Assembly: GCA_964620905.1 (NCBI GenBank)
Contig: CAZUKA010000002.1
Span: forward strand, 121,154-185,153
DNA length: 64,000 nt
Direction: 5' to 3'
From: an uncultured Gammaproteobacteria bacterium
Lineage (GTDB): Bacteria; Patescibacteriota; Patescibacteriia; S139-126
The notes under the pieces are model-generated. The model saw only the letters and a program-made list of their open reading frames with translations, had not been told where the DNA came from and searched no databases. This document shows positions 8,404 to 48,013 of the stretch, piece by piece; the stretch's first letter is position 1; each line of letters opens with the position of its first letter. The translations under genes were made by a program, and so were the position numbers.

Positions 8404-8713
8404 CGTAAAATATTAGAATCAAAGAAACAATCCCAATAATCACTCCTAGTATTTGATATTTATTTAAATTTTCTTTGTACAACCAAAGTCCAATAATAGC
8501 TGCTAAAATAGCACTAGCTACAGAAAAGATAATTGCTCCACGAGCTAAACCACTGCCTGATTTTAAAGCCCAAAGCCAAAAAGCATTGGCAGCTACATAA
8601 CCTAAAATAGCACCAATCCATCTGATCTTACCACCGTGCAGTGAATATTCCTTGGCAATAATATCTGCTATTGATTCAAATAGGATAAGTAAAATTAGTC
8701 CAATAACCCACAT
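8393..8713 (-). CDS. SMR/DMT-superfamily-like small 4-TM membrane protein
   Basis: About 106 aa from Met at 8713, four TM helices, a conserved Glu in TM1 (LFESIAD), similar in size to EmrE. The track ORF extends to 8785 through an upstream Met that is probably not used. Confidence 0.45.
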   Translation of the reverse strand: MWVIGLILLILFESIADIIAKEYSLHGGKIRWIGAILGYVAANAFWLWALKSGSGLARGAIIFSVASAILAAIIGLWLYKENLNKYQILGVIIGIVSLILIFYEKK

Positions 8714-10406
8714 TCTTTTTATTAATAATATAATTATAATATAATTGACAGTAATAATAAATCTCACTACAATATTTAAGTACAATTAAATATATGGAGA
8801 GGTGGCCGAGTGGCTGAAGGCGGCAGGTTGCTAACCTGTTATAGGAGTTTAAATCCCTATCGAGGGTTCGAATCCCTCCCTCTCCGCCAGATTGGCAACT
8901 TTGAACCTTAGTCACGGCAAGGGTTTTTGAGCCCTTGCCACCGACTTTTGGGGGTTCGAAATTGCTAGAGTTTAAGTCCATAAGAACATCAAAGACTGGC
9001 GTCCATATCGGCGTCAGTTTTTGATTTTGCACCGTGAAGCCCTCAAAGCACAGCTTCACCAGTGTTCGCTTCTGATGCATACCACTGGTCTGGAATACTT
9101 TGTCGGCGTGTTCCGTGAAGTCGAGTATCTCGTTAAACTTTTGCACGAATTTGTCCGACTTACCCTCAAGAATCGACAAGCGTTCCTGATACATCTCTTT
9201 CTCCTTTAAAAGCTCGTCCTGAATCTTTATAAACACATCTGCGTCTATGATGCGTTTTGAGCGATCCACAACGATGTTACGGATCTGTTGTTGCACCCTT
9301 ACCAACTCCTGCTTGAGAGTCCTTCGTTCCTTTTCTTCCTGACCCATTCGCTCTTTGGCGAAGTGCTGGAAGTAAGCATCCAAGACCTTCTTAAATCGAT
9401 CCGGCAACTGCACCCTAGAGAGATGCATTGCGACCTGTTCCTCAACCGTCTCCCATCGTATGTATTTACGCTCTGAACAAGCCTTGTCGTTCCAATGGGT
9501 GCATGCGTAGTAGAGATGACCCTTTTGCGTCTGTCCACAGAGCGTAGAACCGCAGACGGCACATCGCATAAAACCGGCCATCGGATAGGAGTGCTTGCGA
9601 CTGCGATCAGCAGAGTGATTGTGTTGTTGGATGATCTCTTGAACGTCATCAAATACCTTTTTAGTAATCAAAGATGGAAAGTTTGCCTGACATGTTGCTG
9701 AACGGGTTTTAACAAGACCATAGTAGATCGGGTTTGCGAGAATGTGTTCGATCGACGTCCGTCTCACTAAATTGCCGTACTTACTTTTGAAACCACGCTT
9801 GGCAAGTTCGGCCGCAAGCGAATCGTAGCTGTACTTTCCAGTCGCGTAGAACTCGAAGGCCATCTTTATAAATGGTGCTCGTAGATTGTCGACAATGAGC
9901 GATTTTGTTTTCTTGTCGTTTAAGTAGCCAGTCGGTGCGTATCCAGGGAACCGGCCACGCTCTACGGCCTCCTTGAGACCCTTCTTGACCTCCCAGCTGA
10001 TGTTCTGGGACGTCCATTGAGCAATTGAGGACATGATGTTCTCGACCAACTCTCCGGAGAAAGACTCATCAAATTGCTCGACCACCGAGATCAGACGAAC
10101 GTCATGCTTTTTGAGCATCATCTTGATGGCCGCATAGTCGGCAACGTTGCGACACATACGGTCCAACTTGTGCATTAAGATAACGTCGACCTTGGCATCG
10201 GTCTTTGCTCGGTGAAGCATTTTTTGAAGCTGTGGACGTTCGACCGTTCGAGCCGATTCGCCCTTCTCCTCGTAGATGCCATCCTGTGCAAGATTCCAGT
10301 GGTGATCCATGCCGTACTTCTGACATGCTTTCACCTGTGCTGGAATACTCAGTTCTCGTTCGGCCTGACGAGAGGTAGAGACACGGCCGTAGATTAAATA
10401 ATTCAT
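8676..10406 (-). CDS. large serine recombinase (phage integrase)
   Basis: N-terminal resolvase catalytic domain (YGRVSTSRQ), recombinase domain, zinc ribbon (CAVCGSTLCG...YYAC), coiled-coil. The ORF has no stop before attL. Its last ~70 codons are the antisense of tRNA-Ser, so the phage-encoded part ends near 8890. Confidence 0.85.
   Translation of the reverse strand: MNYLIYGRVSTSRQAERELSIPAQVKACQKYGMDHHWNLAQDGIYEEKGESARTVERPQLQKMLHRAKTDAKVDVILMHKLDRMCRNVADYAAIKMMLKKHDVRLISVVEQFDESFSGELVENIMSSIAQWTSQNISWEVKKGLKEAVERGRFPGYAPTGYLNDKKTKSLIVDNLRAPFIKMAFEFYATGKYSYDSLAAELAKRGFKSKYGNLVRRTSIEHILANPIYYGLVKTRSATCQANFPSLITKKVFDDVQEIIQQHNHSADRSRKHSYPMAGFMRCAVCGSTLCGQTQKGHLYYACTHWNDKACSERKYIRWETVEEQVAMHLSRVQLPDRFKKVLDAYFQHFAKERMGQEEKERRTLKQELVRVQQQIRNIVVDRSKRIIDADVFIKIQDELLKEKEMYQERLSILEGKSDKFVQKFNEILDFTEHADKVFQTSGMHQKRTLVKLCFEGFTVQNQKLTPIWTPVFDVLMDLNSSNFEPPKVGGKGSKTLAVTKVQSCQSGGEGGIRTLDRDLNSYNRLATCRLQPLGHLSIYLIVLKYCSEIYYYCQLYYNYIINKKNVGYWTNFTYPI
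8796..8889 (+). tRNA. tRNA-Ser (anticodon GCU)
   Basis: Acceptor GGAGAGG/CCUCUCC, anticodon stem GCAGG/CCUGU with loop UUGCUAA, long variable arm, T-arm GAGGG-UUCGAAU-CCCUC, discriminator G plus CCA. Its 3' end is the attachment-site core. Confidence 0.85.
8871..8899 (+). repeat. attL direct repeat (tRNA-Ser 3' end)
   Basis: aatccctccctctccgccagatt(G)gcaac matches 47985-48013 with one mismatch. Confidence 0.8.
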
Positions 10407-16236: not shown

Positions 16237-16240
16237 ACGT

Positions 16241-16441: not shown

Positions 16442-16663
16442 TTAATTAGTAATGAGTGTGGTAGTTGCCGGTGATTCTTGCACCGCTTTCTTAGTACTAT
16501 TCCTGTCGTTCCGAGTGGCATATGCATAACCGAGGAGCAAAATAAGCAGTACCACCGTGATGGCAACTTTTTTCGGCTCTACCTTGTCAGAGTGGTTATG
16601 CATATACTTTAATAATTGACGTAGTATTTGATCTTCGCGCTGGCCGTTAGATCGGAAACCCAT
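16442..16663 (-). CDS. small membrane protein, hypothetical
   Basis: 73 aa with one TM. Its start overlaps the end of the upstream gene. Confidence 0.3.
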   Translation of the reverse strand: MGFRSNGQREDQILRQLLKYMHNHSDKVEPKKVAITVVLLILLLGYAYATRNDRNSTKKAVQESPATTTLITN

Positions 16664-17271
16664 TTCTGCGCTTCTTGTTGGAACTTCTGTCCCTTAAGTT
16701 GTTCACCGACCTGCTTCCTGAAATCCTCCATCTTCACGTCTTTGGGAGGAGTTGCCTTTGAATCTTTGATGTAGGTATCTATCTCTGCCTCAGTTACCGC
16801 CACCTTGTCAGCAAGCAATTTTTCCAGTTTCTTCTGGATGGTTATTTGCTCTCGAAGTTTTTCCTCTGTCATACCTTGCTGAGCAAGTGCCGTTTCAAAG
16901 GTCCCGCCTTGTGCAGTGACTTGAGTCTTTATCTTATCAATTTCCGCGTCAATTTCCTCTTTGGTCGCAGTCACTTTTTGCTTGTTCAATTCAGTCTCAA
17001 TAAGCTTCTTATCGATGATCGCTTCAAGCGCTTGTTTGCCTCCTTGTTTTTCCAACTCCTTAATGACTGATAGACGGCTAATCGGACTGCCGTTTACCGT
17101 TGCGGCCACAAAGATTCCTTTGGCAAAGAACAGAGCAACAATGATAAGAATTACTGCGACTCCGATCGCAATAACGAGCGGTTTGGGCTTCTTAAATTTC
17201 AAGTTTACATACCCCGATTTGTGTTCTTGCGGGAAGTTCTGTGTTTCTAATTTATTTATGTCCTGTTCCAT
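16609..17271 (-). CDS. SurA N-terminal-domain-like periplasmic chaperone, membrane-anchored
   Basis: TM anchor followed by AATVNGSPISRLSVIKELEKQGGKQALEAIIDKKLI, typical of SurA_N/PpiD-like chaperone domains. Confidence 0.55.
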   Translation of the reverse strand: MEQDINKLETQNFPQEHKSGYVNLKFKKPKPLVIAIGVAVILIIVALFFAKGIFVAATVNGSPISRLSVIKELEKQGGKQALEAIIDKKLIETELNKQKVTATKEEIDAEIDKIKTQVTAQGGTFETALAQQGMTEEKLREQITIQKKLEKLLADKVAVTEAEIDTYIKDSKATPPKDVKMEDFRKQVGEQLKGQKFQQEAQKWVSDLTASAKIKYYVNY

Positions 17272-17282
17272 ATTTTTATATC

Positions 17283-18032
17283 TTAATTATTAATTTTAAG
17301 AGCATCGTCTAACATTTTTTTGAATTCCTCATATCCTCTTGGATTCTCAATCTTTTTGCCGTTGAGGAAGAAGGTTGGGGTACCTTGAATGCCTAATTTT
17401 GTTCCAGTATTTTTATCGCGTTCAATACGATTTTTAACCTCTTGCGAATCTACATCTTGTTTAAATTTAGCAAGGTCGAGACCAAGCTGTTTTGCATATC
17501 CTTCAAAAACCTCAGGGGTAGCGATTTGCTTTTCTCCCCAATCTCTCTGGTTTTCAAAGACAATATCGTGCATCTCCCAGTATTTTCCTTGTTTGCCGGC
17601 GGCTTCAACGGCAGATGCTGATGTCATGCTGTTTTTGTGTCCGGGGAGCGGAAAGTATCTTACAACAAATTTCACCCTATCTTTATATTCTTCAGACAAG
17701 CGTTTTACCACAGGATAGTACGCGCCACATGCTTCGCATTCGAAATCAAGATATTCAACAAGCGTGACTGTCCCTTCTTTATTCCCCTTAACCCAATCAT
17801 CCGATGCAACCGTGAGAAGTTCACTAGTTGGAACAGTCGGTCGAGTCGCTCCATACCAGAAAAGTCCGCCAATTGCTCCGGCAATGACGAGTATTATCGC
17901 GAGCCTCTTTGTCCATTGCTTAACTTTATTTGAGCGTTGATGTAGCTGTTCTTCTCTGGCTTTTTCTTGTCGCCTTATCTCTTTTCGCTCTTTTTTGGTG
18001 AGCGGTTTATTATTTTGTTCATTCAATTCCAT
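17283..18032 (-). CDS. DsbA-like thiol:disulfide oxidoreductase (membrane-anchored)
   Basis: TM anchor and thioredoxin fold with a CEAC active site (LDFECEACGAYYP). Confidence 0.75.
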   Translation of the reverse strand: MELNEQNNKPLTKKERKEIRRQEKAREEQLHQRSNKVKQWTKRLAIILVIAGAIGGLFWYGATRPTVPTSELLTVASDDWVKGNKEGTVTLVEYLDFECEACGAYYPVVKRLSEEYKDRVKFVVRYFPLPGHKNSMTSASAVEAAGKQGKYWEMHDIVFENQRDWGEKQIATPEVFEGYAKQLGLDLAKFKQDVDSQEVKNRIERDKNTGTKLGIQGTPTFFLNGKKIENPRGYEEFKKMLDDALKINN

Positions 18033-18055
18033 GATGGTATATCAATTAATGTTAA

Positions 18056-19132
18056 TTACTTAACGAGCTTTTCCGGTCCCACCGCCCGATCATATCTTCT
18101 GCCATCAAACATAATTGTGGGTATTTTGATCGTTTTTATTCTGTTCTCTACAATCTCTTTTTGACTAGCTAATCTTGTTTGTATTTCGCCTGAATTAACA
18201 GCTTGCCGTATCTTGTTGCGGTCATCTTCTGAGTACCCGATATCAGTGAGCCATGAAAGGATTTTATCTTCGGCCTCCTTTGCGGTATACATCGTGTTGA
18301 ATTTTATCTGATAGTCCACATTGTCTGTATCTTTGCTGGTGAACATCCTTTCCAAAATCTGCCAATCGGCTGGTGTTTTTGCCGAAGGTAATGGATAGAG
18401 CTTCACCGCCTCCAGATATGAGGCAATCATCTTAGAATGCGGAAAGCGGTAACCGTTGGACTGTTTGTTGTCCGGTATTGGGTATACCAGATAGGTTAGG
18501 TTGTAGCGGTCGGCAAAATCAGTCTCCTTAATATTACCAAACAACTTGGCGCAGAATTTACAGCTTGGATCGATTATCTCAAGAGCGACAGATTTACTAG
18601 AATCATATGGTTTGTAGTAGGTGTTGGATTCGGAAATAAATTCGTTCGGGTTCCACTCTTTAAATCGGTTCGGGATCATTGTGATCGTCTCGCCCAAGGT
18701 AAGCACTCCGTCTTTAGCCCACATGAGCACTTGTCCTTCTTTAACTGACACCCAGAATCCTGGTTTTCCAGAGTTTATTCCACAACCCCCACCACCCAAT
18801 GAACAGGACTCTGGATTATTTGGGTTACAAGTGTCATAGACGAACAAATTGAGACCACTATTAAGCACCACTAAAAGACTCCACATGCTTAGAATCACAA
18901 AAACCGAAGCCAAGACCCCAATCCACCGATCAAGAAATCTAGCTAAGCGGGGTTTAGTAACGATAAATTTGCCCAAAAGTTTGGCCTTGGCTTCTTCTTG
19001 GAAATTAATATCGCACGGTCTGAAGGTCATTTTTCTGAGTACGCACTTCCATGCCTTTTTTGCCAAGGATCGGTAACTGGCCGAAAAAATACCCAAGACC
19101 GCGAAAATGATAAATGCTGCTATGCAAAACAT
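18056..19132 (-). CDS. membrane protein with thioredoxin-like CxxC domain (disulfide oxidoreductase)
   Basis: Two N-terminal TM helices, paired loop cysteines, and a C-terminal soluble domain with IDPSCKFCAKLF (CxxC). Confidence 0.5.
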   Translation of the reverse strand: MFCIAAFIIFAVLGIFSASYRSLAKKAWKCVLRKMTFRPCDINFQEEAKAKLLGKFIVTKPRLARFLDRWIGVLASVFVILSMWSLLVVLNSGLNLFVYDTCNPNNPESCSLGGGGCGINSGKPGFWVSVKEGQVLMWAKDGVLTLGETITMIPNRFKEWNPNEFISESNTYYKPYDSSKSVALEIIDPSCKFCAKLFGNIKETDFADRYNLTYLVYPIPDNKQSNGYRFPHSKMIASYLEAVKLYPLPSAKTPADWQILERMFTSKDTDNVDYQIKFNTMYTAKEAEDKILSWLTDIGYSEDDRNKIRQAVNSGEIQTRLASQKEIVENRIKTIKIPTIMFDGRRYDRAVGPEKLVK

Positions 19133-19136
19133 ATTT

Positions 19137-20348
19137 TTATAAGTTAGTGATAATCGTTTTAAGTGTTTTCACAAAGAACTCGACTTGTTCTTTGGTATTG
19201 TTAAGGCCCAACGAAACTCTCACCAAAGGCGGATATTTTTTCAGATTTTTCAAGTAATAGTGACAGCAAAAATAACCGCTTCGCACCATGATGTTCTGTG
19301 CGGAGAGAAAGATTGCTAGACGATGAGCATCAATCTTGTCGAAATAGAAGCTCGTGATAGGACTAGGAGAACTATTAATAAGCTTCAGCGTTGGAATTTG
19401 AGAAAGCTCATTAAAAAGAAACTGCGCAAGCTTTTCTTGGTGGACGGGTGCTGACACTCCTTCCTTCTTAAAACTTTTGAGCCAATCCAAGGAGGCGCCA
19501 AGACCAACAATGCCAGCGAAATTTTGTAGACCAATTTCTAACCTACTTCCTAAGTCATCCGAATCGGATATCAGCCGATATTTTTCCGCTTCCACATCTT
19601 CTACCATACCTCCGCCAATAAATCCGATGTCCAGTGCGGCAAGAAGAGATTTCTTGATAATGATTACTCCTAAGCTGGGGCCATACATTTTATGTCCGGA
19701 AAAGAACAATGCGTCAAAATCACTTTCACGAATGATCTTTTGGTCATGGCTTATCCCTTGAGCGGCATCAACAAGTACTATCCCGCCTGTTTTGTGAACA
19801 TCATCAGTGATTTCCTTTAAGTTGATCAACTCGCGTCCATCAATATTGGACATACTATTTAGAACTACGATTGCGCCGGAAATATCATCTTTGTTGTACA
19901 TTAACGATCCGTTTGCTGACCGCTCTAGGATAGTGCGCGGAATGCTCAGTCTTTTGGCGGCAGTCATCGTCGGCAAAAACACCGAATTGTGCTCAATGTC
20001 CGAGGTTATAATTTTATTGAACTTCGGAGGCAACTGGCCGAGTACCAAATTTATGCCGTAAGTAGTGTTCAGCGTAAATGCCACCGCATATTCGGAAGCT
20101 GGCTTACCTACGAACGATAGTACTTTCTTTCTTGTCTCCTTTATTTTTTCATCCAGCTTTATACCCCAATCGTATTTCACCCGTCCTCCGCATGAATTGT
20201 ACTCGTGGTAATACTCCGCCATAGCATCAATAACTTGCTGTGGACGCAGTGTTTGGCATGCCGAATCCAGATATAGGACATCTTTGTTCAGATAAGAGAA
20301 ATCTGGATCATCATTTTTTGTTTTTTTGTTGATGTTTAAGAAATTCAT
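19137..20348 (-). CDS. class-V aminotransferase / cysteine desulfurase family protein
   Basis: PLP-lysine motif SGHKMYGPSLGV (SufS/NifS-like). Confidence 0.75.
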   Translation of the reverse strand: MNFLNINKKTKNDDPDFSYLNKDVLYLDSACQTLRPQQVIDAMAEYYHEYNSCGGRVKYDWGIKLDEKIKETRKKVLSFVGKPASEYAVAFTLNTTYGINLVLGQLPPKFNKIITSDIEHNSVFLPTMTAAKRLSIPRTILERSANGSLMYNKDDISGAIVVLNSMSNIDGRELINLKEITDDVHKTGGIVLVDAAQGISHDQKIIRESDFDALFFSGHKMYGPSLGVIIIKKSLLAALDIGFIGGGMVEDVEAEKYRLISDSDDLGSRLEIGLQNFAGIVGLGASLDWLKSFKKEGVSAPVHQEKLAQFLFNELSQIPTLKLINSSPSPITSFYFDKIDAHRLAIFLSAQNIMVRSGYFCCHYYLKNLKKYPPLVRVSLGLNNTKEQVEFFVKTLKTIITNL

Positions 20349-20350
20349 AA

Positions 20351-21094
20351 TTATTTTTCCTGCAAAGCTGTCTCAATGAGTTGCTTTATAGAAGCATATG
20401 GCTGTGCGCCAGAGAGTGGATATTTTTTGCCGTTTTTGGCAACAACAATACTCCACGGTGTGCCATTGCCACCAGTTGCTTGAGCATTTTGCACCTCGTC
20501 TTCTATGTGTTTATCGTATTTAGTACTTGCAAGACATGTGCTAAATTTCGTCTTATCTAAACCGACATACTCTGCGATCTTTGGTAGCTCTGCAAGGTCG
20601 AGTCCGTTGTTTGCAGGAGTGATTTCATAGAGGCGATCAGCATATTCCCAGAATTTGTCGTTTCCTCCCTGGTCGTTTGCACACTCAAGCGCAACAGCTT
20701 CTTTTCGCGCTTTAGAGTGAAGCTGATCAAGTGGAAAATGTCTGTACACCCAAGCTACTTTTCCATCCTTGCCGTAGGTATCGATTACTTCTTTCATTGT
20801 TGTATGAAATCTCTTACAGAACGGGCATTCGGTATCCGAATACTCGACTATTTTTATCGGTGCATCTGGATTGCCTCGAATGTGGTCTTTTGATGTGACG
20901 GGCGTCATTTGTTCAAGATCACCTGTCTGCTGTGCCACCTGCTGTTGTTGTGGCTGATTTGCGGTACCTGCTGTAGGTGCCTTGCCACCGCTGTAGATTA
21001 CTGCGCCGGCAATGAGTACTCCAGCAATAACTACAGCTATTGGCATAGAAAGCGAGAACGTATTTTTTTGTGTTTGTTGATTATTTTCTTCCAT
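20351..21094 (-). CDS. DsbA-like thiol:disulfide oxidoreductase
   Basis: TM or signal sequence plus CPFC active site (YSDTECPFCKRFH) and DsbA-like insertion. Confidence 0.8.
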   Translation of the reverse strand: MEENNQQTQKNTFSLSMPIAVVIAGVLIAGAVIYSGGKAPTAGTANQPQQQQVAQQTGDLEQMTPVTSKDHIRGNPDAPIKIVEYSDTECPFCKRFHTTMKEVIDTYGKDGKVAWVYRHFPLDQLHSKARKEAVALECANDQGGNDKFWEYADRLYEITPANNGLDLAELPKIAEYVGLDKTKFSTCLASTKYDKHIEDEVQNAQATGGNGTPWSIVVAKNGKKYPLSGAQPYASIKQLIETALQEK

Positions 21095-21159
21095 ATCAAT
21101 ATAAAGTTAAAATTAATAAAGCCAGCACAAAAAAGTGCTGAACTGAGAGAAAGCGGACG

Positions 21160-21576
21160 TTAGAAAATCTTCGGATTAAGAATTCCACTAGAAAAAGCTT
21201 CTTGGAGGGGATCAAATATCTGATACTTTCTTAAGTAAAAAGGGTTTATGTATATCTCTGGCCAAGGTTGATCGTGTATAGAAAATTTCTTCCAAGCTCC
21301 AATTGCCAATAAGGCAAGCAGTGCGAGAAGTGCAGAAAGAAAAGATAGAGCATCTTTTGCCGGAAGCGTGGTAAACATGCTCTGCCATTCCTGAATATGC
21401 TCCATCGGGTTCATTTTGCAGATAGACATCGAGTGACCGCTGAACGGACAGTTTCCTGTTGCAGTACTCATGTCCATTGCTCCAAGACCGAAACACGATA
21501 TGCCAAAAAGAAGGACAGTAAGAACTGCAAGTATGATGGGAAACTTTATTATGTTTTTAGTCGATTTGAAAAACAT
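21160..21576 (-). CDS. membrane protein, hypothetical (Cys/His/Met-rich loop)
   Basis: 138 aa with two TM helices and a NCPFSGHSMSICKMNPMEH loop that may bind metal. Confidence 0.4.
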   Translation of the reverse strand: MFFKSTKNIIKFPIILAVLTVLLFGISCFGLGAMDMSTATGNCPFSGHSMSICKMNPMEHIQEWQSMFTTLPAKDALSFLSALLALLALLAIGAWKKFSIHDQPWPEIYINPFYLRKYQIFDPLQEAFSSGILNPKIF

Positions 21577-21593: not shown

Positions 21594-24383
21594 TTAAAAT
21601 CCATACTGATCCATTCGTAATTTGAAGGCATCACGGCCACCCTCAGTGACGAGGATTATTTCTTCCTTAATTTCCTTTTTATCGATTGCACCCATAGCTT
21701 TGATTGATCCACGGGTCTGGTCGCCAGCTTTTATGTAATCGCAACAGACTACAAGTTCGGCATCGCCATTAACGACAAAGTTTGCACTGTGGCTTGCAAA
21801 AATAAGCTGTCGTTTACTCTTAGCTCTCCAGACCTGCTGGACGATATCTTTGAACATCTTACTATCGATATCGTCTTCTGGCTGGTCAATGATTAGTGGC
21901 GCACCTGACTGATTCAAAAGGACGGTGAGCAAAGCCGTTGCTTGTTGGCCAGCTGACGCATCTGAAAATCCGATATAGTCTTTCTTTGCCTTGTTGGTGC
22001 AATAAGAAAACTTTGGATTAAATTCCAGCTCTGTGACAGAGAGGTCGAGCCACCGTGCAGAGTCAAAGCTAGTCGCAATTCTTGTGCGTTCAGTATCGAT
22101 AAAATTGCACTTATTAAGAATCGGAGTATCCGGCATCTCATCGGGTCCCTCCGTAGAGTGCAGTGCGAGCTTCTCAAGTTCTGAAAGAATGCCGTTCCAC
22201 TCAACAAGTGGATTGCTGGCTTTCAACAGAGATTGACAGATTTTCTCAAGCTTCGCTTCGTTGATATTCATACCGGAAAAAGCCGTCTTGAGTTTTAGAG
22301 TGAGGGCGTTGGTGTCCAGACTGTTTGTGATTTCCGCCTTAATGAGATCACCGGATAGTGCGGTGAACTGAGTACATTGCTTTTCAAGAGCCTTGATCTT
22401 TTGAGTATGCAAGCCGTCCCACTTAGTGCGGAGTTTTTTGTACGCAGTTTCCGGATCGCCAAGAGCCGCAAGCGCGTTGCGTTTTTCCGTCTGCTGTTTT
22501 TTGAGTGTGGCGATACGCTTCTCAAGAGTTTGTATCTGATCGAGCTGTTGCTGGTTAACCTTAGCTTTTACTTTTGCGGCCTCGTATTTCTTATCAAATG
22601 TCACCTTAAGTTTTTCCCACTCCTTGATCTCGTCGTTGATAGTCTTAAGTGATGCTGGCTTAAAAAGATTTGAGAGTGCGGTAACGCCAGCTTCTATTTC
22701 TGTAAATTTAGAAGCGTATTTGGTTTGAATTCGGCCGATCAGAGCTTTATTCTCCAGCTCGACTTCCTCCTCTTCGACTTCCTCGCCCTCTAATGCCTCT
22801 ACAAGATTCCCGACATGTTCCTGTGTGGTCTCAAGCTCGTTTTTGAGAGCTTCAATGATCGCTTCCTCGTTATCGTATTTTGCCTTCTGATCGATAGTTT
22901 TCTGATCCTCCTTAGACAATCCCTTGAGACTCTTGCGAAGTTTTCCCAGCTGTTCGGTCGATGAAGCTATCTCTACATTATTTTTATTGACCTCCGCCTC
23001 GATTTCATTCATCCGGATTAAATCACCATAAGCGGATCGCATCTTTGCTTCCGTGTCTCGCACATCCGAACGAATTTGATCGAGTTCCTGTTTGATTGGA
23101 AGTTCGACAAAACGCTTCAGCTCATCGATGCGTACACCTACGCTACTTAGCTGTTTCTGACTGTACGCTTGGATCGGAAGCAAATTTCGTACTTGCTGTT
23201 CTGTGGCCGGAGAGAATTCGCCATCGCCAATTTTAAGCAAAATTTCCTGCTTCTTTGAGTTACGTTTTACGATATGGGGTACATCGTTGAGAAGGAATTC
23301 GACATGCACCTCACCGTCAAATTTCTGGAGAGTATTGTCGATTAAATTCTTGCGCTTGGTCTGCACGATGTCCATGTCCTCGCTCTCTACCGGCTGATCA
23401 CAAAGACCCCATCGGAGATATTCGAGGATTGTAGACTTGCCTGTACCACGACCACCAATGATGGCGTTGTACTGCTGGTTTAAATCAAAGCCAACCTGCC
23501 CAAGAAACTTGGAGTTTGTGACGCTGATCGATGTGATCCAAAGATTCGGGAGTTCGGGTTCAACGAGAGAGACTCTGGATTCTCTGGCCAAGCATGCTTG
23601 ACGGAGTGCCTCTGCAGTCGGTTCTGACCATTTAACGTATGTGCTAGGTAGGCCAAGATCGGAATGATCACGTTTGCGGTTATCGGAAGTTTGAAAGACC
23701 GCAATCGGTTTGTACCCATTGTTTTGCTGGCGTCCCTCGAGGATATTTTTGTAGCCATCGCTCGACTTTGAATACTCACCATCAACATAACCACCCACGC
23801 AACGCATCTCTTTGTAGTGCTTTGCAAATCCGTCACGGAAAAGAGTTTTATGTCCTGCAGTGGTGACGTTCGGAAGTATGATGTATTTTCCTTTAAGCCA
23901 AAAGTGCTGGTTTAGTCGATCCTCGAGATCGTTCAATCCGGTGATCGATGTCGGCGATACAGACTCAACACTTGCGAGTTTGCTATTTGTCGGATCGGTG
24001 GCCGCAATAGTGAGTGTGGTCAGAATGTCCCCAAATTTTGTCTCGTCGAAATCAGCATCAAGCAAAAGTATCGCTTGGCACGGTGGAGATGAAAGTGTGA
24101 GCTCGATACCAGGAAAAACAACGATCTGATCCTGTGGTTCAATGGATTCACCGATAAGATTAACTTCCGATGCCGCCGCCGCTTTCACATACGGAAACAT
24201 GCAAAAGTCATGGTGATCAGTTATCGCAATCGCATTGAGACCTTTTGTTCGGCATGCCTGAATAAGCTCTTCTGCATAAGCTTTGCGTTCTGCTGGTGTA
24301 GCGGCTTCCGCACCGTCCCAATTTGCATCTCGGGGAGTGTGAACTTGGAAGTCGCATTTGTAGAAGTGTGCACCTTTGTCCAT
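21594..24383 (-). CDS. PHP-phosphoesterase fused to SMC/Rad50-like ABC ATPase with long coiled-coil (candidate defence protein)
   Basis: N-terminal PHP motifs (QVHTPRD, ITDHHD). Walker A IIGGRGTGKST, about 350 aa of coiled-coil, a signature-like SGDLI, Walker B LIIDQPEDDID, H-loop FASHS. Confidence 0.8.
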   Translation of the reverse strand: MDKGAHFYKCDFQVHTPRDANWDGAEAATPAERKAYAEELIQACRTKGLNAIAITDHHDFCMFPYVKAAAASEVNLIGESIEPQDQIVVFPGIELTLSSPPCQAILLLDADFDETKFGDILTTLTIAATDPTNSKLASVESVSPTSITGLNDLEDRLNQHFWLKGKYIILPNVTTAGHKTLFRDGFAKHYKEMRCVGGYVDGEYSKSSDGYKNILEGRQQNNGYKPIAVFQTSDNRKRDHSDLGLPSTYVKWSEPTAEALRQACLARESRVSLVEPELPNLWITSISVTNSKFLGQVGFDLNQQYNAIIGGRGTGKSTILEYLRWGLCDQPVESEDMDIVQTKRKNLIDNTLQKFDGEVHVEFLLNDVPHIVKRNSKKQEILLKIGDGEFSPATEQQVRNLLPIQAYSQKQLSSVGVRIDELKRFVELPIKQELDQIRSDVRDTEAKMRSAYGDLIRMNEIEAEVNKNNVEIASSTEQLGKLRKSLKGLSKEDQKTIDQKAKYDNEEAIIEALKNELETTQEHVGNLVEALEGEEVEEEEVELENKALIGRIQTKYASKFTEIEAGVTALSNLFKPASLKTINDEIKEWEKLKVTFDKKYEAAKVKAKVNQQQLDQIQTLEKRIATLKKQQTEKRNALAALGDPETAYKKLRTKWDGLHTQKIKALEKQCTQFTALSGDLIKAEITNSLDTNALTLKLKTAFSGMNINEAKLEKICQSLLKASNPLVEWNGILSELEKLALHSTEGPDEMPDTPILNKCNFIDTERTRIATSFDSARWLDLSVTELEFNPKFSYCTNKAKKDYIGFSDASAGQQATALLTVLLNQSGAPLIIDQPEDDIDSKMFKDIVQQVWRAKSKRQLIFASHSANFVVNGDAELVVCCDYIKAGDQTRGSIKAMGAIDKKEIKEEIILVTEGGRDAFKLRMDQYGF

Positions 24384-24386
24384 AAA

Positions 24387-24890
24387 TTAAAATTTCGTAA
24401 TATGCTCCTGATTGCTTGAATAGCCTGCAGTGCCGTCGTTAGTGGCCATGCTGAAGTACGACTTCTTCGCAACGATAATAAAGTCTTCAAAGAATGGTTT
24501 GAACGACAAAACCTGCGAGTCTGCTTGCAGTGCTCGCATGAGTTTCTTGTCGTCCTCATTCGGAGTCGGATCAGTAGAGCCGGGATGATTGATCAAGACC
24601 ATAAACTTCTTGGCAAGAAATAGAGAAAAGTAATGCCAGAGCATCTGCGTGTCGAGATTCTTGGGGGAGGAACCAAGAAAGACCTGATGCCCGAGGAACA
24701 GGTTTTTGTCATCGAGATAGATTCCAATCACTTTGGAAACTGCCTCGTCTTCCAAGTCTTTGAGGAATTTATAGAGGTCTTCCGGATCACGAACCTGACC
24801 CTGAATCGGAGGCTCTACATCGGTCTCAACGATCTCATATTTCTTGAGATATCGTTTGCCGTCATCATTTTTGTGTTCATCATTTTTCAT
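24387..24890 (-). CDS. RadC-like JAB/MPN domain protein
   Basis: LINHPGSTDPTPNEDD matches the RadC HNHPSG...PS..D signature, with the first His replaced by Ile. There are 3 nt between its start and the stop of the upstream gene. Confidence 0.65.
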   Translation of the reverse strand: MKNDEHKNDDGKRYLKKYEIVETDVEPPIQGQVRDPEDLYKFLKDLEDEAVSKVIGIYLDDKNLFLGHQVFLGSSPKNLDTQMLWHYFSLFLAKKFMVLINHPGSTDPTPNEDDKKLMRALQADSQVLSFKPFFEDFIIVAKKSYFSMATNDGTAGYSSNQEHITKF

Positions 24891-24915
24891 AGGCGATTTC
24901 CAAAGTTTGGTTAAT

Positions 24916-25992
24916 TTATAATTTTACATACCGGGTCCCACGACCACGTCCGACCCGTTTGACCAGTCCGAGTTCGATCAATCGTTCCAGTGCCTGACTG
25001 ACCGTAACACCGACAATGCCGGTGGCTTTGGCAATCTCGCCCGGAGCGGCCTCGCCGACCGATGAGAGATACTTCCATACCTCGTATTGCTTGGGAGAAA
25101 GGGTGTCTTCGACTTTTTCATCTTGCAGATACGAGAGAGCCTTCGTTGCTTGTTCTTTTACGACCGACAAAAAGAAATTAAGCCATGGCACGATGGTATC
25201 GTGTTCGGTCTTGAATGTTTCCTGAGACTTGCGAAGTGCCAAGTAGTATTCATCCTTGCGACGTTCAACAATTTGCTCGTGTGAGACGTACTGCACGAAC
25301 TGGTAGCCAGATCGGAGTAGCAAAAGATTTGTGAGAACGCGCGAAAGACGCCCATTGCCGTCTTCAAATGGGTGGATTTTTAGAAACTCAACTACGAAAT
25401 TTGCGATGAGAAGCAAAGGATGGAAACGATTCTTCTCAAAAGCGTCCGTTGTCCAATCAACAAGTTCCTGCATTTCCTTTGCAGTCAGAAATGCTGGCGT
25501 CGTCTCGAACATGATTCGAGCGACTTTGCCGTCCGGTCCAAGTACACCGACAGTGTTCTCTTTCTTTTTGTAACCGCCACGATGTGTGTCGTCCTTGTGG
25601 GAGTATTTAAGAAGCTGATTGTGAAGCGATGTGATCACGCTCTCTCGAAGTGGTAGGGTCTGGAAGCTGTCGAATACATTCTGAAGTACCTCAAGATACC
25701 CCTGCACCTCCTGCGTGTCACGATCGGAAAACTTTGAGACTGAAAGTCCCTGCATAATTTTCTCAACCTCTTCGTCGGTGAGCTTCGCACCCTCGATACG
25801 AGTGGATGCACCGGCAGAAGTAATAAGCACCGACTGCTTCAAGCTAGTAATGGCTTGCGGAGTCATTCGCAAACCGGACTTAAATTCACCTCGAATACCA
25901 TCGATCTCTGCCAAGAGAGCAACGATGTGTGGCTCGGGGTTTTTGATCCTGAGATCAAACTTTTGAGTGATATCGTTCATAATTTTGCTCAT
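24916..25992 (-). CDS. Fic/DOC family protein with C-terminal winged HTH
   Basis: Fic motif HPFEDGNGRLSRV. The N-terminus has an inhibitory-helix-like S-TRI-EG ([ST]xxxE[GN]). The C-terminal HTH is VGVTVSQALERLIELGLV. Confidence 0.85.
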   Translation of the reverse strand: MSKIMNDITQKFDLRIKNPEPHIVALLAEIDGIRGEFKSGLRMTPQAITSLKQSVLITSAGASTRIEGAKLTDEEVEKIMQGLSVSKFSDRDTQEVQGYLEVLQNVFDSFQTLPLRESVITSLHNQLLKYSHKDDTHRGGYKKKENTVGVLGPDGKVARIMFETTPAFLTAKEMQELVDWTTDAFEKNRFHPLLLIANFVVEFLKIHPFEDGNGRLSRVLTNLLLLRSGYQFVQYVSHEQIVERRKDEYYLALRKSQETFKTEHDTIVPWLNFFLSVVKEQATKALSYLQDEKVEDTLSPKQYEVWKYLSSVGEAAPGEIAKATGIVGVTVSQALERLIELGLVKRVGRGRGTRYVKL

Positions 25993-26129
25993 ATACGTTA
26001 TGTATGTGATTATATGGGATTATATGATTAAATGCAAGTAATAGGCCTGTGGGCGACCAACAACCCACCAAAACAAGGGATTTTCGCCATTAAACACGAC
26101 TTTGTGGTATAATATCCACAATAATCCTT

Positions 26130-26597
26130 ATGCAAAAAGACTTCACATTCCAGCTCATCAAAGGAAAGATTGGTGAGATCATCTTCGACCAAATGTTCCG
26201 AGAAGCGGCCGAATTTACGGTCATACCTTTTGGCTACGAATCAACTGTGCCAGAGATCGCACAATTTGCCCGATCGGTAGAGCATAAAGAAGTACTCGAT
26301 GCGATCCGCAACACCCCAGATTTTGCTCTCATCTCCCACAACCAAAAGCAGGTCTTTTTGGTAGAGGTTAAATTCAGGACGAGAATGAATTCCGAGGAAG
26401 TGCTCAAGACCGCTGGAAAGATACACGAGCGATGGAAGCTCGCATGGCTTTTTATCGCCACGCCGGATGGTTTCTACTTCGATAGCTGTACTAACGTGAT
26501 CGAGAAGGGATCAATTATGCCTCTCAACGCCAGCTGGGTGAATCCGGAACTGCAGAAAAAATACTTGGAGATAATGAATAAATTCCAGACCGACTAG
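26130..26597 (+). CDS. hypothetical protein with possible PD-(D/E)xK nuclease motif
   Basis: 155 aa. The spacing E...PDFALISHNQKQVFLVEVKF resembles a D...(E)VK restriction-endonuclease-like core. Weak. Confidence 0.35.
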   Translation: MQKDFTFQLIKGKIGEIIFDQMFREAAEFTVIPFGYESTVPEIAQFARSVEHKEVLDAIRNTPDFALISHNQKQVFLVEVKFRTRMNSEEVLKTAGKIHERWKLAWLFIATPDGFYFDSCTNVIEKGSIMPLNASWVNPELQKKYLEIMNKFQTD

Positions 26598-26719: not shown

Positions 26720-26769
26720 AAGGGCTCGTGACCAATCGCTTAATTGCGAAAGGTCACGAGCCCTTTTTC
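26720..26769 (+). terminator. rho-independent terminator
   Basis: aagggctcgtgacc...ggtcacgagccctt followed by tttt. Confidence 0.6.
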
Positions 26770-26926
26770 GTTATCCGATTGTTTCCAGCTCTCTGATACC
26801 TCCCGGGTCGAGCATCCACCAACTGTGATCGACCTCACACTGCACTGGACTCACGGGTCCCGTGTAAATAAAAAAAATTTCACAGCGGATGTGGGGGTGT
26901 CGGAGAGCTGGAACAAAATAATATTT

Positions 26927-27946
26927 ATGTTTTCCAAATTTCAATCATTACCAAGTTACTTCGGCGGCAAGCGAAAGCTTGTAAAGCACATTTTCAAACC
27001 TATCAAAAAGACAGAGGGTGTTTTTATCGATGCATTTCTTGGAGGCGGATCAGTAAGTCTCTATGCAAAAGCAAAAGGATACAAAGTTATTGCGAACGAC
27101 ATCGCATTCCGATCCGTGATCATCGGCCGGGCCCTGATTGCCAACAACAACGTGAAGCTAGAGAGCGAGGACTTGGCAAGACTCTTCCTCAAAGCCAAGC
27201 ACGACGGCTTTATTCGCAAGAACTATTGCCCGAAAGTATTCACGAGTAAGATCGCAGACTTTCTCGACACCGCTATCGTGAATGCTCATGCAGTCGAGAA
27301 CGAAACCAAGCGACATCTTCTCCTACATCTCCTCATAAAGTTTATTTTGTCCTGCCGACAATTTGGAAAATTCACGCACACCAGAGACACGCTCGATCTC
27401 GAAGCCCGAAAGTGGGAGTGGCCTCTCCGGTCCAAGTCGCATGCCCCGAAAAATCTCCGCATGATCCAAAACCCGATGATGACTTTGGAAAAATTAAAAG
27501 ACGAAATTAATCATGGCGTATTTGATAATCATCAAGACAATGAAATTCATCAAAAAGATGTGTTCGACTTTCTCAAGAAAGTTACTGGTGATGTTGTTTA
27601 TTTTGATCCTCCTTATCCTGGCTCTTCTGCCTACGAAGTTGAGTATGGGATTTTAGATAACATCCTTGTCGGCAAAAAACTCGACAACAAACCCAGCCCT
27701 TTCTCCAACAAAGATGCCGATGAATTCCTTGAGCGGATGTTCGAGTCGGCAAAGCACATTCCTCAATGGATTATCTCCCTCGGCCAGAACAAGGAGGATG
27801 TGGGAGTGAAGCCGGACAAGCTTCTCGCAATGGTGCAGAAGCATCGGAAGGCCGAAGTGATCATGCTCGATCACAAATGGTCGGTGTCAAACGCCGGAGG
27901 TCGAAACCAGAGCAACAATATCGAGTACATGATCATAACTGTATGA
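26927..27946 (+). CDS. Dam-type N6-adenine DNA methyltransferase
   Basis: N-terminal SYFGGKRKL, motif I FLGGGSV, motif IV DPPY (VYFDPPYPG). Start chosen at the Met downstream of the terminator. The track ORF begins at 26744. Confidence 0.85.
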   Translation: MFSKFQSLPSYFGGKRKLVKHIFKPIKKTEGVFIDAFLGGGSVSLYAKAKGYKVIANDIAFRSVIIGRALIANNNVKLESEDLARLFLKAKHDGFIRKNYCPKVFTSKIADFLDTAIVNAHAVENETKRHLLLHLLIKFILSCRQFGKFTHTRDTLDLEARKWEWPLRSKSHAPKNLRMIQNPMMTLEKLKDEINHGVFDNHQDNEIHQKDVFDFLKKVTGDVVYFDPPYPGSSAYEVEYGILDNILVGKKLDNKPSPFSNKDADEFLERMFESAKHIPQWIISLGQNKEDVGVKPDKLLAMVQKHRKAEVIMLDHKWSVSNAGGRNQSNNIEYMIITV

Positions 27947-47984: not shown

Positions 47985-48013
47985 AATCCCTCCCTCTCCG
48001 CCAGATTAGCAAC
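47985..48013 (+). repeat. attR direct repeat (copy of the tRNA-Ser 3' end)
   Basis: aatccctccctctccgccagatt(A)gcaac. GC-rich phage DNA lies to the left and AT-rich host DNA to the right. Confidence 0.8.

What the first reader, a model, noticed from the sequence alone, without database searches (positions are those of the whole stretch)
21594..25992. Prophage-borne three-gene operon: Fic, RadC-like JAB and a PHP-phosphoesterase fused to an SMC/Rad50-like ATPase, a candidate antiviral defence system
Three tightly spaced minus-strand genes, with gaps of 25 nt and 3 nt, sit between the prophage cargo block and a PD-(D/E)xK/Dam pair.
- The 929-aa protein joins an N-terminal PHP metal-dependent phosphoesterase (QVHTPRD, ITDHHD) to a Walker A/coiled-coil/Walker B ABC ATPase. 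This is a one-chain Mre11/SbcD-substitute plus Rad50/SbcC-like layout.
- A PHP+ATPase single-gene architecture resembles the 'Ppl' family reported in systematic defence screens. I recall this from the literature and cannot confirm homology here.
- The upstream JAB protein has a RadC signature lacking the first metal-binding His (I-N-H-P-G-S instead of H-N-H-P-S-G), which suggests a non-catalytic or regulatory role.
- The Fic protein carries both the HPFEDGNGR active site and an inhibitory-helix motif (S-TRI-EG), i.e. an auto-inhibited AMPylator or Doc-like toxin.
This combination, expressed from a lysogen, reads as an abortive-infection or nuclease-based defence module. The three-gene combination itself has not been described as far as I know.
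Basis: partly seen in the sequence, partly recalled or inferred. Interest (0 to 1): 0.85.

Follow-up and report, generated by a model that had tools for sequence, protein, structure and literature searches.

The report
Prophage defence slot with separable genes
Three adjacent genes in a prophage of an ultra-small (Patescibacteria-type) bacterium are real, and two belong to known anti-phage families, but they are independent, swappable cassettes in a variable defence slot, not one new three-gene system.

Summary
The three minus-strand ORFs, their 25-nt and 3-nt gaps and all quoted motifs are confirmed.

**What the genes are**
- The 929-aa protein is a full-length member of the NCBIfam 'TrlF family AAA-like ATPase' (494 bits, cutoff 350). 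It is a PHP domain fused to an SMC/Rad50-like ABC head with a coiled coil.
- It is homologous end to end to the validated single-gene anti-phage exonuclease Ppl (hhalign 99.75%, 24% identity).
- The Fic protein is a class II Fic with a winged-helix tail and matches PADLOC's SoFic model.
- The RadC-like protein has a degenerate JAB site.

**Why it is not one system**
- Of 80 TrlF loci from genomes, only two, both the same prophage family, carry Fic and RadC.
- Of 52 RadC loci with enough downstream sequence, TrlF is adjacent in 1, about 4.8 kb away in 5 and absent in 46.
- In relatives the same slot holds type I, II and III restriction-modification, AbiE and other cassettes.

**Verdict**
This is a defence hot spot in a tRNA-Ser-integrated temperate phage, and TrlF is most likely an autonomous Ppl-like cassette. 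One twist: this TrlF clade replaces four canonical PHP histidines with invariant Gln, Gln, Asn and Arg. It is a new member of known kinds, of modest interest.

The parts
24916..25992 (-). Fic gene (358 aa). A class II Fic AMP-transferase-type protein with an N-terminal inhibitory helix motif (STRIEG), the catalytic loop HPFEDGNGRLSR and a C-terminal winged helix. SoFic-like.
   Evidence: Pfam Fic 61.6 bits, MarR_2 27.8 bits. PADLOC SoFic E 4.6e-45 over residues 27-356. NCBIfam SoFic scores only 55.8 bits against a cutoff of 550. PDB 8uqu_A E 2.1e-34 at full length. Both motifs kept in 44 of 44 orthologues.
24387..24890 (-). RadC-like JAB-domain gene (167 aa) with a degenerate metalloprotease site. 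A conserved backbone gene of this phage family that marks the edge of the variable slot.
   Evidence: Pfam RadC 35.1 bits. A profile of 24 homologues against PDB 2qlc gives E 2.9e-6, with the Glu, first His and Ser of the JAMM motif not matched. The first-His position is I, L, M or V in 85 of 85 copies. The subfamily has 148 proteins in the search (the 120 listed are 62-100% identical).
21594..24383 (-). TrlF-family gene (929 aa). PHP domain plus SMC/Rad50-like ABC ATPase with a coiled-coil insert. A full-length homologue of the anti-phage protein Ppl.
23559..24383 (-). PHP-like phosphoesterase domain of TrlF (about residues 1-275). Variant metal site: D11, Q13, H15, D19 / D56, H57, H58 / E94 / Q103 / N172 / D234, R236.
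   Evidence: Alignment with Ppl and enterobacterial TrlF. Site pattern across about 80 clade members. Pfam PHP 22.3 bits, below cutoff. A low-confidence domain model (pLDDT 55) still gives 10 PHP-fold proteins among its top 11 PDB matches, E 0.01-0.08.
23130..23558 (-). N-terminal half of the ABC ATPase head (about residues 276-418), with Walker A GGRGTGKST at residues 310-318.
   Evidence: Invariant columns in 57 homologues. Model secondary structure. Sequence.
22104..23129 (-). Coiled-coil insert (about residues 419-760). No CxxC zinc hook.
   Evidence: Long helices 419-484, 491-531, 546-572, 580-606, 611-641 and 644-676 in the model. No CxxC anywhere in the protein.
21597..22103 (-). C-terminal half of the ABC head (about residues 761-929): signature SAGQQ, Walker B LIIDQPEDD, H-loop SHS.
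   Evidence: This is the region best matched by the Ppl models.
25993..26129 (.). 137-nt divergent intergenic region upstream of Fic. A possible promoter region, not shown to be one.
   Evidence: One promoter-like match on each strand here, but the count for the scanned region is not above chance (19 found against 24 expected).
21160..21576 (-). 138-aa membrane-protein gene, 17 nt after TrlF and followed by a terminator-like hairpin at 21141-21122. It belongs to the DsbA cargo block, not to TrlF.
   Evidence: No family hit. It directly follows RadC, or comes after another cassette, in relatives that lack TrlF: L090, L134, L150, L129. Hairpin.
26744..27946 (+). Dam-type N6-adenine DNA methyltransferase (the ORF is 400 aa; independent gene calls give 339 aa). 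Backbone gene on the other side of the slot.
   Evidence: MethyltransfD12 79.5 bits. Syntenic with ParB and TerL in most relatives.
8871..8893 (.). attL: 23-bp direct repeat AATCCCTCCCTCTCCGCCAGATT at the 3' end of tRNA-Ser (8796-8889).
47985..48007 (.). attR: second copy of the 23-bp repeat. The prophage spans about 8871-48007.
   Evidence: The GC shift matches.
8676..10406 (-). Large serine recombinase (prophage integrase).
   Evidence: Resolvase 105 bits, Recombinase 51 bits, Zn_ribbon_recom 33 bits.

Best explanation
The region is the proximal end of a variable defence and cargo slot in a 39-kb temperate phage. The phage is integrated into tRNA-Ser of a low-GC, most likely Patescibacteria (CPR), host. 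The three genes are separate modules, not one machine.

(1) The 929-aa protein is a TrlF-family PHP plus SMC/Rad50-like ATPase.
- Shown: it is a full-length homologue of Ppl, it has no conserved partner gene, and it sits in defence islands, on plasmids and inside a BREX locus elsewhere.
- Inferred, by analogy with what is reported for Ppl: it acts alone. The ABC heads would dimerise on ATP, with the coiled coil as a DNA-engaging arm. The PHP domain would be the phosphoesterase that attacks invading-phage nucleic acid, probably at DNA ends and when nucleotide pools fall. A lysogen would thereby be protected from superinfection.

(2) The Fic protein is an auto-inhibited class II Fic with a winged-helix tail, of the SoFic type.
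- Inferred: it is an abortive-infection AMPylating toxin.

(3) The RadC-like protein has lost three of the five JAMM catalytic residues but is strongly conserved.
- Inferred: it is a non-catalytic backbone gene of this phage family that happens to border the slot, possibly a binding or regulatory partner.

In sister prophages the position occupied here by TrlF holds type I, II or III restriction-modification, AbiE, Hsp70-like, AAA_15+VWA or MTase+DUF87 cassettes, or nothing.
For: TrlF identity:
- NF045780 scores 493.9 bits against a cutoff of 350, full length.
- Homology to Ppl has probability 99.75% over 819 columns.
- The ATPase motifs are invariant in 57 homologues.

No fixed partner for TrlF:
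- 62 immediate co-directional neighbours in 80 genome loci fall into 53 sequence clusters, the largest with 3 members.
- Their Pfam and PADLOC hits are ResIII, HNH, HsdR/HsdS, GmrSD, TIR/ThsB, PD-(D/E)xK, DpnII, HinP1I and REase_II.

Defence and mobile contexts elsewhere:
- TrlF lies between pglX and pglZ of BREX in Vibrio plasmid pLH80-1.
- It lies directly after a type III RM on Sphingobium plasmid pMI3.
- 947 plasmid records match, 674 of them conjugative.

Separability of the three genes:
- Only L002 and L004 of 80 TrlF loci have Fic-RadC-TrlF.
- Among RadC loci, Fic is adjacent in 38 of 58. TrlF is adjacent in 1 of 52, 4.8 kb downstream in 5 of 52 and absent in 46 of 52.
- L090 has RadC directly followed by the membrane-protein gene, with no TrlF.
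- L081, L012 and L018 have Fic but no RadC.

Slot contents in relatives.

Prophage status: att repeats, integrase, repressor and TerL.

Literature:
- Ppl mechanism as reported: PMC12904381 and PMC13434339, the latter citing Xu et al., Mol Cell 2026.
- SoFic as a toxic single-gene defence: PMC12249575.
Against: - No experiment shows anti-phage activity for any TrlF-family member. The only genetics, on the Photorhabdus TRL, tied a temperature phenotype to trlG and not trlF (PMC7554251).
- This TrlF clade lacks four of the His ligands present in Ppl (Q13, Q103, N172, R236). Nuclease activity is therefore less certain than the Ppl analogy suggests.
- Pfam PHP is below threshold and the PHP part of the models has low confidence.
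- Fic and RadC are adjacent in two thirds of relatives with a constant short gap, so some functional link between those two is not excluded.
- All RadC-bearing loci belong to one phage lineage, so shared ancestry and function cannot be separated there.
- I did not read the Ppl primary paper (not held).
- Host assignment rests on the labels of MAGs carrying near-identical genes, not on the window's own marker genes.
Confidence: 0.7

Rival explanations
1. One reading: Fic, RadC-like and TrlF form one integrated three-gene defence system. For example, TrlF would sense DNA, the pseudo-JAB would act as adaptor and Fic as effector.
For: Tight spacing of 25 and 3 nt on one strand. The same trio occurs with the same spacing in L002, L004, L122 and L163.
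Against: Those four loci are the same prophage lineage, with 77-100% identical proteins. TrlF is absent from 46 of 52 RadC loci and separated by RM cassettes in 5 more. About 74 of 80 TrlF loci have neither Fic nor RadC. Fic occurs without RadC. The co-directional array continues past TrlF for six more genes.
Confidence: 0.04
2. Fic and the RadC-like protein form a two-gene toxin-antitoxin-like module, analogous to SoFic with its downstream antitoxin AS1. The pseudo-JAB protein would restrain or tune the Fic toxin. TrlF is an unrelated neighbouring cassette.
For: Fic is immediately upstream of RadC, with a gap of about 25 nt, in 38 of 58 assessable loci. E. coli Sofic is toxic despite its inhibitory helix and is neutralised by a small gene just downstream (PMC12249575). 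The RadC-like protein is catalytically degenerate yet highly conserved, as expected of a binding protein.
Against: RadC occurs without Fic in 20 of 58 loci. Fic occurs without RadC and is followed directly by a methyltransferase in L012, L018 and L081. AS1 is 47 aa and unrelated to JAB. All data come from one phage lineage. In L151-L157 RadC is oriented with Dam, ParB and TerL and has no Fic.
Confidence: 0.18
3. TrlF is not immunity. It would be a phage DNA-repair or recombination enzyme, a one-chain SbcCD/Mre11-Rad50 substitute used in phage replication or end processing.
For: Head fold closest to Smc, Rad50 and SbcC. phrog_77 'SbcC-like' E 3.3e-7. PGAP attaches the GO term 'double-strand break repair' to TrlF entries.
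Against: Present in only 6 of 52 sister prophages with otherwise syntenic backbones, so it is dispensable for the phage. It sits on the lysogeny/cargo side, not in a replication module. Elsewhere it lies in RM/BREX/TIR islands and on conjugative plasmids. There is no Mre11-type domain or partner and no zinc hook. Only seven weak, partial matches exist in 50,697 sequenced phages.
Confidence: 0.06
4. TrlF of this clade is a defence protein, but its PHP domain no longer works as a Ppl-type His-rich metal exonuclease. It would act as a nucleotide or ligand sensor, or as a phosphoesterase with different chemistry or substrate.
For: Ppl has DFHNH, H, H and SDAH. This clade has DFQVH, Q103, N172 and SDNR, and these residues are conserved in about 80 members at 41-96% identity. 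The Vibrio TrlF differs from Ppl at the same positions in other ways (ALQVN, AADVAR).
Against: Eight acidic or His residues remain (D11, H15, D19, D56, H57, H58, E94, D234; invariant or nearly so), enough for a two-metal site. Gln and Asn can also bind metal ions. Strict conservation argues for an active site rather than decay.
Confidence: 0.25

Closest known systems
TrlF family AAA-like ATPase (NCBIfam NF045780), named after trlF of the Photorhabdus laumondii temperature restriction locus trlR-trlF-trlG (PMC7554251)
   Same: Full-length match above the curated cutoff. Same PHP + ABC head + coiled-coil layout and similar length. 25% identity over the whole length to a PGAP-annotated Vibrio TrlF.
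   Different: No TrlG (AlbA_2/HATPase_c_4, 'RNA-binding domain') or TrlR partner here or in the 80 related loci. Such a partner is present next to the Vibrio TrlF. The PHP site residues differ between the clades. No function has been shown for TrlF itself.
Ppl, a single-gene anti-phage PHP-ATPase. Reported to be an ssDNA 3'-5' exonuclease activated by NTP depletion and 3'-OH overhangs (Xu et al., Mol Cell 2026, as cited in PMC12904381 and PMC13434339).
   Same: Homologous over 819 columns, probability 99.75%. Same domain order. Appears to work without a fixed partner. Found on mobile elements.
   Different: Only 24% identity. Scores 162.6 bits against a cutoff of 1000 for the Ppl model. Four Ppl His ligands are replaced by Q, Q, N and R. 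Activity is untested.
SoFic / Sofic single-gene defence (class II Fic with a C-terminal domain), with its antitoxin AS1 in E. coli H397 (PMC12249575)
   Same: The PADLOC SoFic model matches residues 27-356 at E 4.6e-45. Catalytic loop, N-terminal inhibitory motif and C-terminal winged helix are present.
   Different: Far below the NCBIfam SoFic equivalog cutoff (55.8 against 550). The closest solved structure is another Fido protein, 8uqu (E 2e-34), whereas SoFic 3eqx gives E 1e-6. The downstream gene is a 167-aa pseudo-JAB, not a 47-aa peptide.
RadC-like JAB domain proteins of mobile elements (PF04002; PMC5512222, PMC3239186)
   Same: Pfam match above cutoff, and the profile matches RadC structure 2qlc. 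Found as a solo gene in a prophage.
   Different: Glu, first His and Ser of the JAMM motif are missing in every member. It is a narrow subfamily of 148 proteins with no match among sequenced phages.
SbcCD / Mre11-Rad50
   Same: The ABC head with coiled-coil insert is structurally closest to Smc, Rad50 and SbcC heads. A phosphoesterase is coupled to it.
   Different: The phosphoesterase is PHP-type and fused, not a calcineurin-like Mre11/SbcD subunit. The coiled-coil insert is about 340 residues (419-760), which I take to be short next to Rad50/SbcC (comparison from my own knowledge), and has no CxxC hook. No chromosome-maintenance context.
Defence hot spots of temperate phages and satellites, e.g. 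P2/P4 (from my own knowledge of the literature, not checked here)
   Same: A fixed position between conserved backbone genes carries mutually exclusive defence cassettes in sister prophages.
   Different: The host lineage is Patescibacteria, and the anchor genes (Dam, ParB, Fic, RadC-like) are different.

Membership tests
TrlF family (NF045780) | Full-length match to the curated model above its cutoff | tested here: met
   493.9 bits against 350. Residues 3-928 against model positions 1-944 of 944.
TrlF family (NF045780) | PHP-like N-terminal domain fused to an ABC/SMC-type ATPase with a coiled-coil insert | tested here: met
   The PHP-only model's top PDB hits are mostly PHP proteins, but weak.
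TrlF family (NF045780) | Operon with trlG (AlbA_2 + HATPase_c_4) and trlR, as in the founding Photorhabdus locus | tested here: not met
   The neighbours are RadC-like and a membrane protein. No recurrent partner in 80 loci, and AlbA_2 is not among the 25 listed of 82 matched Pfam families. A TrlG-like gene is present next to the Vibrio TrlF. This is a context feature, not part of NCBI's model.
Ppl (NF042955 / PADLOC PDLC02208) | Match above the curated cutoff | tested here: not met
   162.6 bits against 1000. PADLOC Ppl E 3.8e-37, with the best stretch only at the C-terminal 120 residues.
Ppl (NF042955 / PADLOC PDLC02208) | Homology along the whole chain with the same domain order | tested here: met
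   hhalign probability 99.75%, E 2.9e-27, columns 14-937 against 3-888 of 891.
Ppl (NF042955 / PADLOC PDLC02208) | Canonical PHP His ligands (HxH, H, H, DxH) | tested here: not met
   Q13, Q103, N172 and R236 stand in place of four His, and this is conserved across the clade.
Ppl (NF042955 / PADLOC PDLC02208) | Acts as a single gene | tested here: inconclusive
   No conserved neighbour and solitary copies exist, but autonomy was not tested functionally.
Ppl (NF042955 / PADLOC PDLC02208) | 3'-5' ssDNA exonuclease activity, NTP inhibition and anti-phage protection | not testable with these tools
   Needs biochemistry and phage challenge.
SoFic defence | Match to the SoFic detection model | tested here: inconclusive
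   PADLOC SoFic E 4.6e-45 at full length, but the NCBIfam SoFic equivalog scores 55.8 against 550.
SoFic defence | Fic catalytic loop HxFx(D/E)GNGRxxR | tested here: met
   HPFEDGNGRLSR, kept in 44 of 44 orthologues.
SoFic defence | Class II layout: the inhibitory motif (S/T)xxxE(G/N) lies N-terminal to the Fic core, and there is a C-terminal domain | tested here: met
   STRIEG at residues 62-67. MarR_2 winged helix at residues 300-348.
SoFic defence | Toxicity, AMPylation and phage protection | not testable with these tools
   Needs experiment.
RadC-like JAB (PF04002) | Domain match above the gathering score | tested here: met
   35.1 bits against 22.1. Profile against 2qlc E 2.9e-6.
RadC-like JAB (PF04002) | JAMM metal site E...HxHx7Sx2D | tested here: not met
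   Only the second His and the Asp are kept. Glu, first His and Ser are absent in all members.
SbcCD / Mre11-Rad50 | Rad50-type ABC head split by a coiled coil | tested here: met
SbcCD / Mre11-Rad50 | Mre11/SbcD calcineurin-like nuclease and a CxxC zinc hook | tested here: not met
   No such domain or neighbour. No CxxC.
Proposed new three-gene system | Co-conservation of the three genes beyond close relatives | tested here: not met
   2 of 80 TrlF loci. TrlF adjacent in 1 of 52 RadC loci.

The most novel reading that the evidence does not exclude
The TrlF clade to which this gene belongs spans Patescibacteria, Acidobacteriota, Bacteroidota, Planctomycetota, Actinomycetota and even archaeal MAGs, at 41-96% identity. 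It has exchanged four canonical His ligands of the PHP site for invariant Gln13, Gln103, Asn172 and Arg236, while every ATPase motif stays intact. The clade may therefore be a mechanistically distinct, still uncharacterised single-gene immunity protein whose PHP domain senses or cleaves something other than what Ppl does. In Patescibacteria phages it would ride in a defence hot spot anchored by a Fic / pseudo-JAB pair that may itself be a toxin-antitoxin-like unit.
Probability: 0.25. Interest if true: 0.5.

Novelty: new member of a known kind. Interest (0 to 1): 0.3.

Why it matters
- It removes a false lead. The 'new three-gene system' is three independent modules, two of them already catalogued (TrlF/Ppl-like and SoFic-like).
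- It documents a clear defence hot spot in a widespread family of temperate phages of Patescibacteria. These bacteria are usually described as poor in classical immunity (PMC12455944).
- It flags a large, cross-phylum TrlF clade that nobody has tested for anti-phage activity. Its non-canonical PHP site makes simple transfer of the Ppl mechanism unsafe.
- The TrlF clade and the Fic / pseudo-JAB pair are both cheap to test in E. coli.

Tried and rejected
- **Solved structures by sequence.** The single sequence gave no hit, and the profile gave only weak SMC Walker-A matches. No Ppl or TrlF chain is in the copy searched.
- **Ppl primary paper.** It is not held, so the mechanism is taken from two citing papers.
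- **PHP domain modelled alone.** pLDDT was only 55. The top 11 Foldseek hits are nearly all PHP proteins, but none reaches E 0.001, so this counts as consistent and not as proof.
- **Promoter and terminator scan.** Promoter-like sites are not above chance (19 against 24 expected), so the proposed promoter at 25993-26129 is unverified.
- **Link between the RadC C-terminal CxCGH motif and Fic presence.** None found: 32:15 against 10:5.
- **RadC-like subfamily in sequenced phages.** No match.
- **Junction alignment of TrlF-plus and TrlF-minus relatives.** Too divergent for a base-exact breakpoint.
- **PADLOC on TrlF neighbours.** Many defence models hit (363 families), but the summary format does not give a per-gene fraction.
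- **Chromosomal SbcC/RecN reading.** Rejected because of the patchy, mobile, defence-island distribution.

Full report
**Observation.** The gaps are 25 and 3 nt. Profile searches confirm Fic (61.6 bits) with a C-terminal MarR-type winged helix, and RadC (35.1 bits, cutoff 22.1). For the large protein they give several ABC/SMC ATPase models plus a sub-threshold PHP hit (22.3 against 26.4 bits). The quoted motifs are all present. The element is a prophage. A 23-bp direct repeat lies at the 3' end of tRNA-Ser (8871-8893) and again at 47985-48007. This brackets a GC-richer 39-kb segment that encodes a large serine recombinase, a CI-like repressor, TerL and a weak portal match. One correction concerns the 'operon'. 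The co-directional array does not end after three genes. It continues for nine genes with gaps of 65 nt or less. The only terminator-like hairpin in that stretch follows the fourth gene.

**A twist in the PHP site.** I aligned the N-terminal domains of the window protein, five clade members, a Vibrio TrlF, an E. coli plasmid TrlF and Ppl. Ppl and the E. coli TrlF keep the His-rich PHP motifs (DFHNH/DFHLH, H, H; Ppl also SDAH). The window clade has DFQVH, Q103, N172 and SDNR. Across about 80 members at 41-96% identity the pattern D11-Q13-H15-D19 / D56-H57-H58 / E94 / Q103 / N(H)172 / D234-R236 is essentially fixed. Such conservation argues for a working site. But it is not the canonical one, so the Ppl exonuclease mechanism can be transferred only with caution. 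A domain-only model was poor (pLDDT 55). Ten of its top 11 PDB matches are PHP-fold proteins (PolC PHP, RNase AM, PHP phosphoesterases) at E 0.01-0.08, which is consistent but weak.

**Are the three genes one system?** I tested co-conservation from both ends.
- From TrlF: a scan of one genome per species gave 80 loci with 8-kb flanks. Only L002 and L004 have Fic and RadC directly upstream, and both carry the same Dam-ParB-TerL phage backbone. L001 and L009 have RadC further upstream, with methyltransferase or M.HinP1I/R.HinP1I genes in between. L012 and L018 have Fic about 5 kb upstream and no RadC.
- TrlF neighbours: the 62 immediate co-directional neighbours of TrlF fall into 53 sequence clusters, the largest with 3 members. 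Their domains are ResIII, HNH, HsdR/HsdS, GmrSD, TIR/ThsB, PD-(D/E)xK, DpnII and HinP1I.
- From RadC: the subfamily is narrow, with 148 proteins in the search (the 120 listed are 62-100% identical). A metagenome scan gave 80 loci. Fic is immediately upstream in 38 of 58 assessable loci. TrlF is adjacent in 1 of 52, 4.8 kb downstream behind a methyltransferase cassette in 5 of 52, and absent in 46 of 52. In L090 RadC is followed directly by the membrane-protein gene that follows TrlF in the window.
- From viral contigs: an IMG/VR relative (L081) has Fic, then methyltransferases, then a 337-aa gene, then TrlF, with no RadC.

**What the slot is.** In sister prophages the position after RadC carries one of many cassettes:
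- type III RM (N6_N4 methylase with a ResIII/RE_endonuc protein);
- type I RM (HsdM/S/R);
- HaeII or HinP1I type II RM;
- AbiEi/AbiEii;
- an Hsp70-like three-gene set;
- an AAA_15 ATPase with a VWA protein;
- a methylase with DUF87.

This is a classic defence hot spot between conserved backbone genes. TrlF also sits in defence contexts elsewhere. It lies between pglX and pglZ of a BREX system, with a TrlG-like gene, on a Vibrio plasmid. It lies directly after a type III RM on a Sphingobium plasmid. It is solitary between transposons on an E. coli plasmid. In all, 947 plasmid records match, 674 of them conjugative. Only seven weak, partial matches exist in the sequenced-phage collection.

**Fic and the RadC-like protein.** The Fic protein has the catalytic loop and the N-terminal inhibitory motif in 44 of 44 orthologues. 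It matches PADLOC SoFic over its full length and is closest to the solved Fido protein 8uqu (E 2e-34). It fails the NCBIfam SoFic equivalog cutoff. Similar Fic genes sit at the ends of streptococcal prophages. The RadC-like protein keeps only the second His and the Asp of the JAMM motif. The Glu, first His and Ser are missing in all copies. It is probably non-catalytic, yet many positions are invariant. E. coli Sofic is toxic and is neutralised by a small downstream gene, AS1 (PMC12249575). A Fic / pseudo-JAB toxin-antitoxin-like pairing is therefore a fair rival, which I put at about 0.18. However, RadC without Fic (20 of 58 loci) and Fic without RadC (three loci) show that the pairing is not obligatory.

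**Mechanism, with shown and inferred steps.**
- Shown: the family assignments, the architecture, the intact ATPase motifs, the variant PHP site, the prophage borders, the separability of the genes and the variable slot.
- Inferred: TrlF acts alone in the lysogen as a Ppl-like, ATP/NTP-gated phosphoesterase against superinfecting phage nucleic acid. Fic is an auto-inhibited abortive-infection toxin. The RadC-like protein is a structural or regulatory backbone gene.

Overall confidence in this picture is 0.7.

**Host.** Near-identical TrlF and RadC proteins (96-98%) sit on contigs labelled Minisyncoccia, both with a longest contig of 181,454 bp. Further copies are labelled Kaiserbacteria, Saccharibacteria, WWE3, Nomurabacteria and other Patescibacteria. 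The window's flanks are 32-39% GC. A Patescibacteria host is therefore likely but was not proven from marker genes. Prophages of about 44 kb in Paceibacteria have been reported, with a C-5 methylase read as an auxiliary gene (PMC12455944). That paper's main text never mentions Fic or RadC.

**Verdict.** The locus is a new member of known kinds: a TrlF/Ppl-type cassette and a SoFic-like gene next to a pseudo-JAB, in a prophage defence hot spot. Interest is modest at 0.3. It comes mainly from the untested TrlF clade with its non-canonical PHP site and from the hot spot in Patescibacteria phages.

Noticed in passing
window 13071-21576 (minus strand): The prophage cargo block after TrlF contains an M23 peptidase, a P-type (E1-E2) ATPase, a SurA_N-like protein, two DsbA-like thioredoxins, a 358-aa Cys-rich membrane protein with no family, a class-V aminotransferase (cysteine-desulfurase-like) and a 138-aa membrane protein. 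At least the start of the block (membrane protein and DsbA, plus further genes in some loci) recurs in L002, L004, L122, L134 and L163. It looks like envelope, oxidative-folding or metal functions carried by a phage of an ultra-small bacterium.
   Followed up: partly
window 26130-26597 (+): The 155-aa ORF called 'PD-(D/E)xK' has only a sub-threshold TnsA-like hit (E 0.006). It is an optional gene between Dam and Fic, present in L084, L087, L088, L109, L115, L135 and L163 and absent from most relatives. Some relatives have a 72-aa Sigma70_r4-like gene there instead.
   Followed up: partly
window 8676-10406 (minus strand) and 8796-8893: The longest ORF of the serine integrase runs across attL (8871-8893) and the tRNA-Ser gene into host DNA. 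Its C-terminal tail is therefore created by integration. The homologue in L081 is 538 aa, against 576 aa here.
   Followed up: no
L151-L157 (metagenome loci): In these relatives the RadC-like gene points the same way as Dam, ParB and TerL and has no Fic upstream. This is an inverted arrangement relative to the window.
   Followed up: no
RadC-like C-terminus: window 24387-24450; alignment A3: About three quarters of RadC-like copies end in a C-x-C-G-H-Q-E-Y motif, a possible small metal site. The window copy has AGYSSNQEH instead. The motif shows no correlation with Fic presence.
   Followed up: partly
L111 4551-7588; also L132, L136, L148: One slot cassette consists of a 171-aa protein, an 837-aa Hsp70/MreB-like ATPase and a protein of about 540 aa with no family (present in L132, L136 and L148). 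It occupies the same position as known defence cassettes and may be an uncharacterised defence system.
   Followed up: no
L086 11256-12266; also L001 3862-4872 and L081 6983-7996: A 337-aa protein with no Pfam or PADLOC hit sits 4 nt upstream of TrlF in L001 and L081 and is the last plus-strand gene before TrlF in five more loci. In L093 and L101 it precedes a 468-470-aa gene, and in L142 an unrelated 380-aa gene. It travels with N6_N4 methyltransferases and may be the nuclease of an unrecognised RM system.
   Followed up: partly
L166 (Vibrio parahaemolyticus plasmid pLH80-1) 3981-7894: TrlF plus a TrlG-like 'RNA-binding domain-containing protein' is inserted between pglX and pglZ of a BREX-1 system. 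This would be an embedded second defence module.
   Followed up: no
L040 and L055 (genome loci): TrlF homologues at 43-46% identity occur in contigs labelled as archaeal MAGs (Methanoperedens, Methanofastidiosum). This indicates cross-domain spread of this clade.
   Followed up: no
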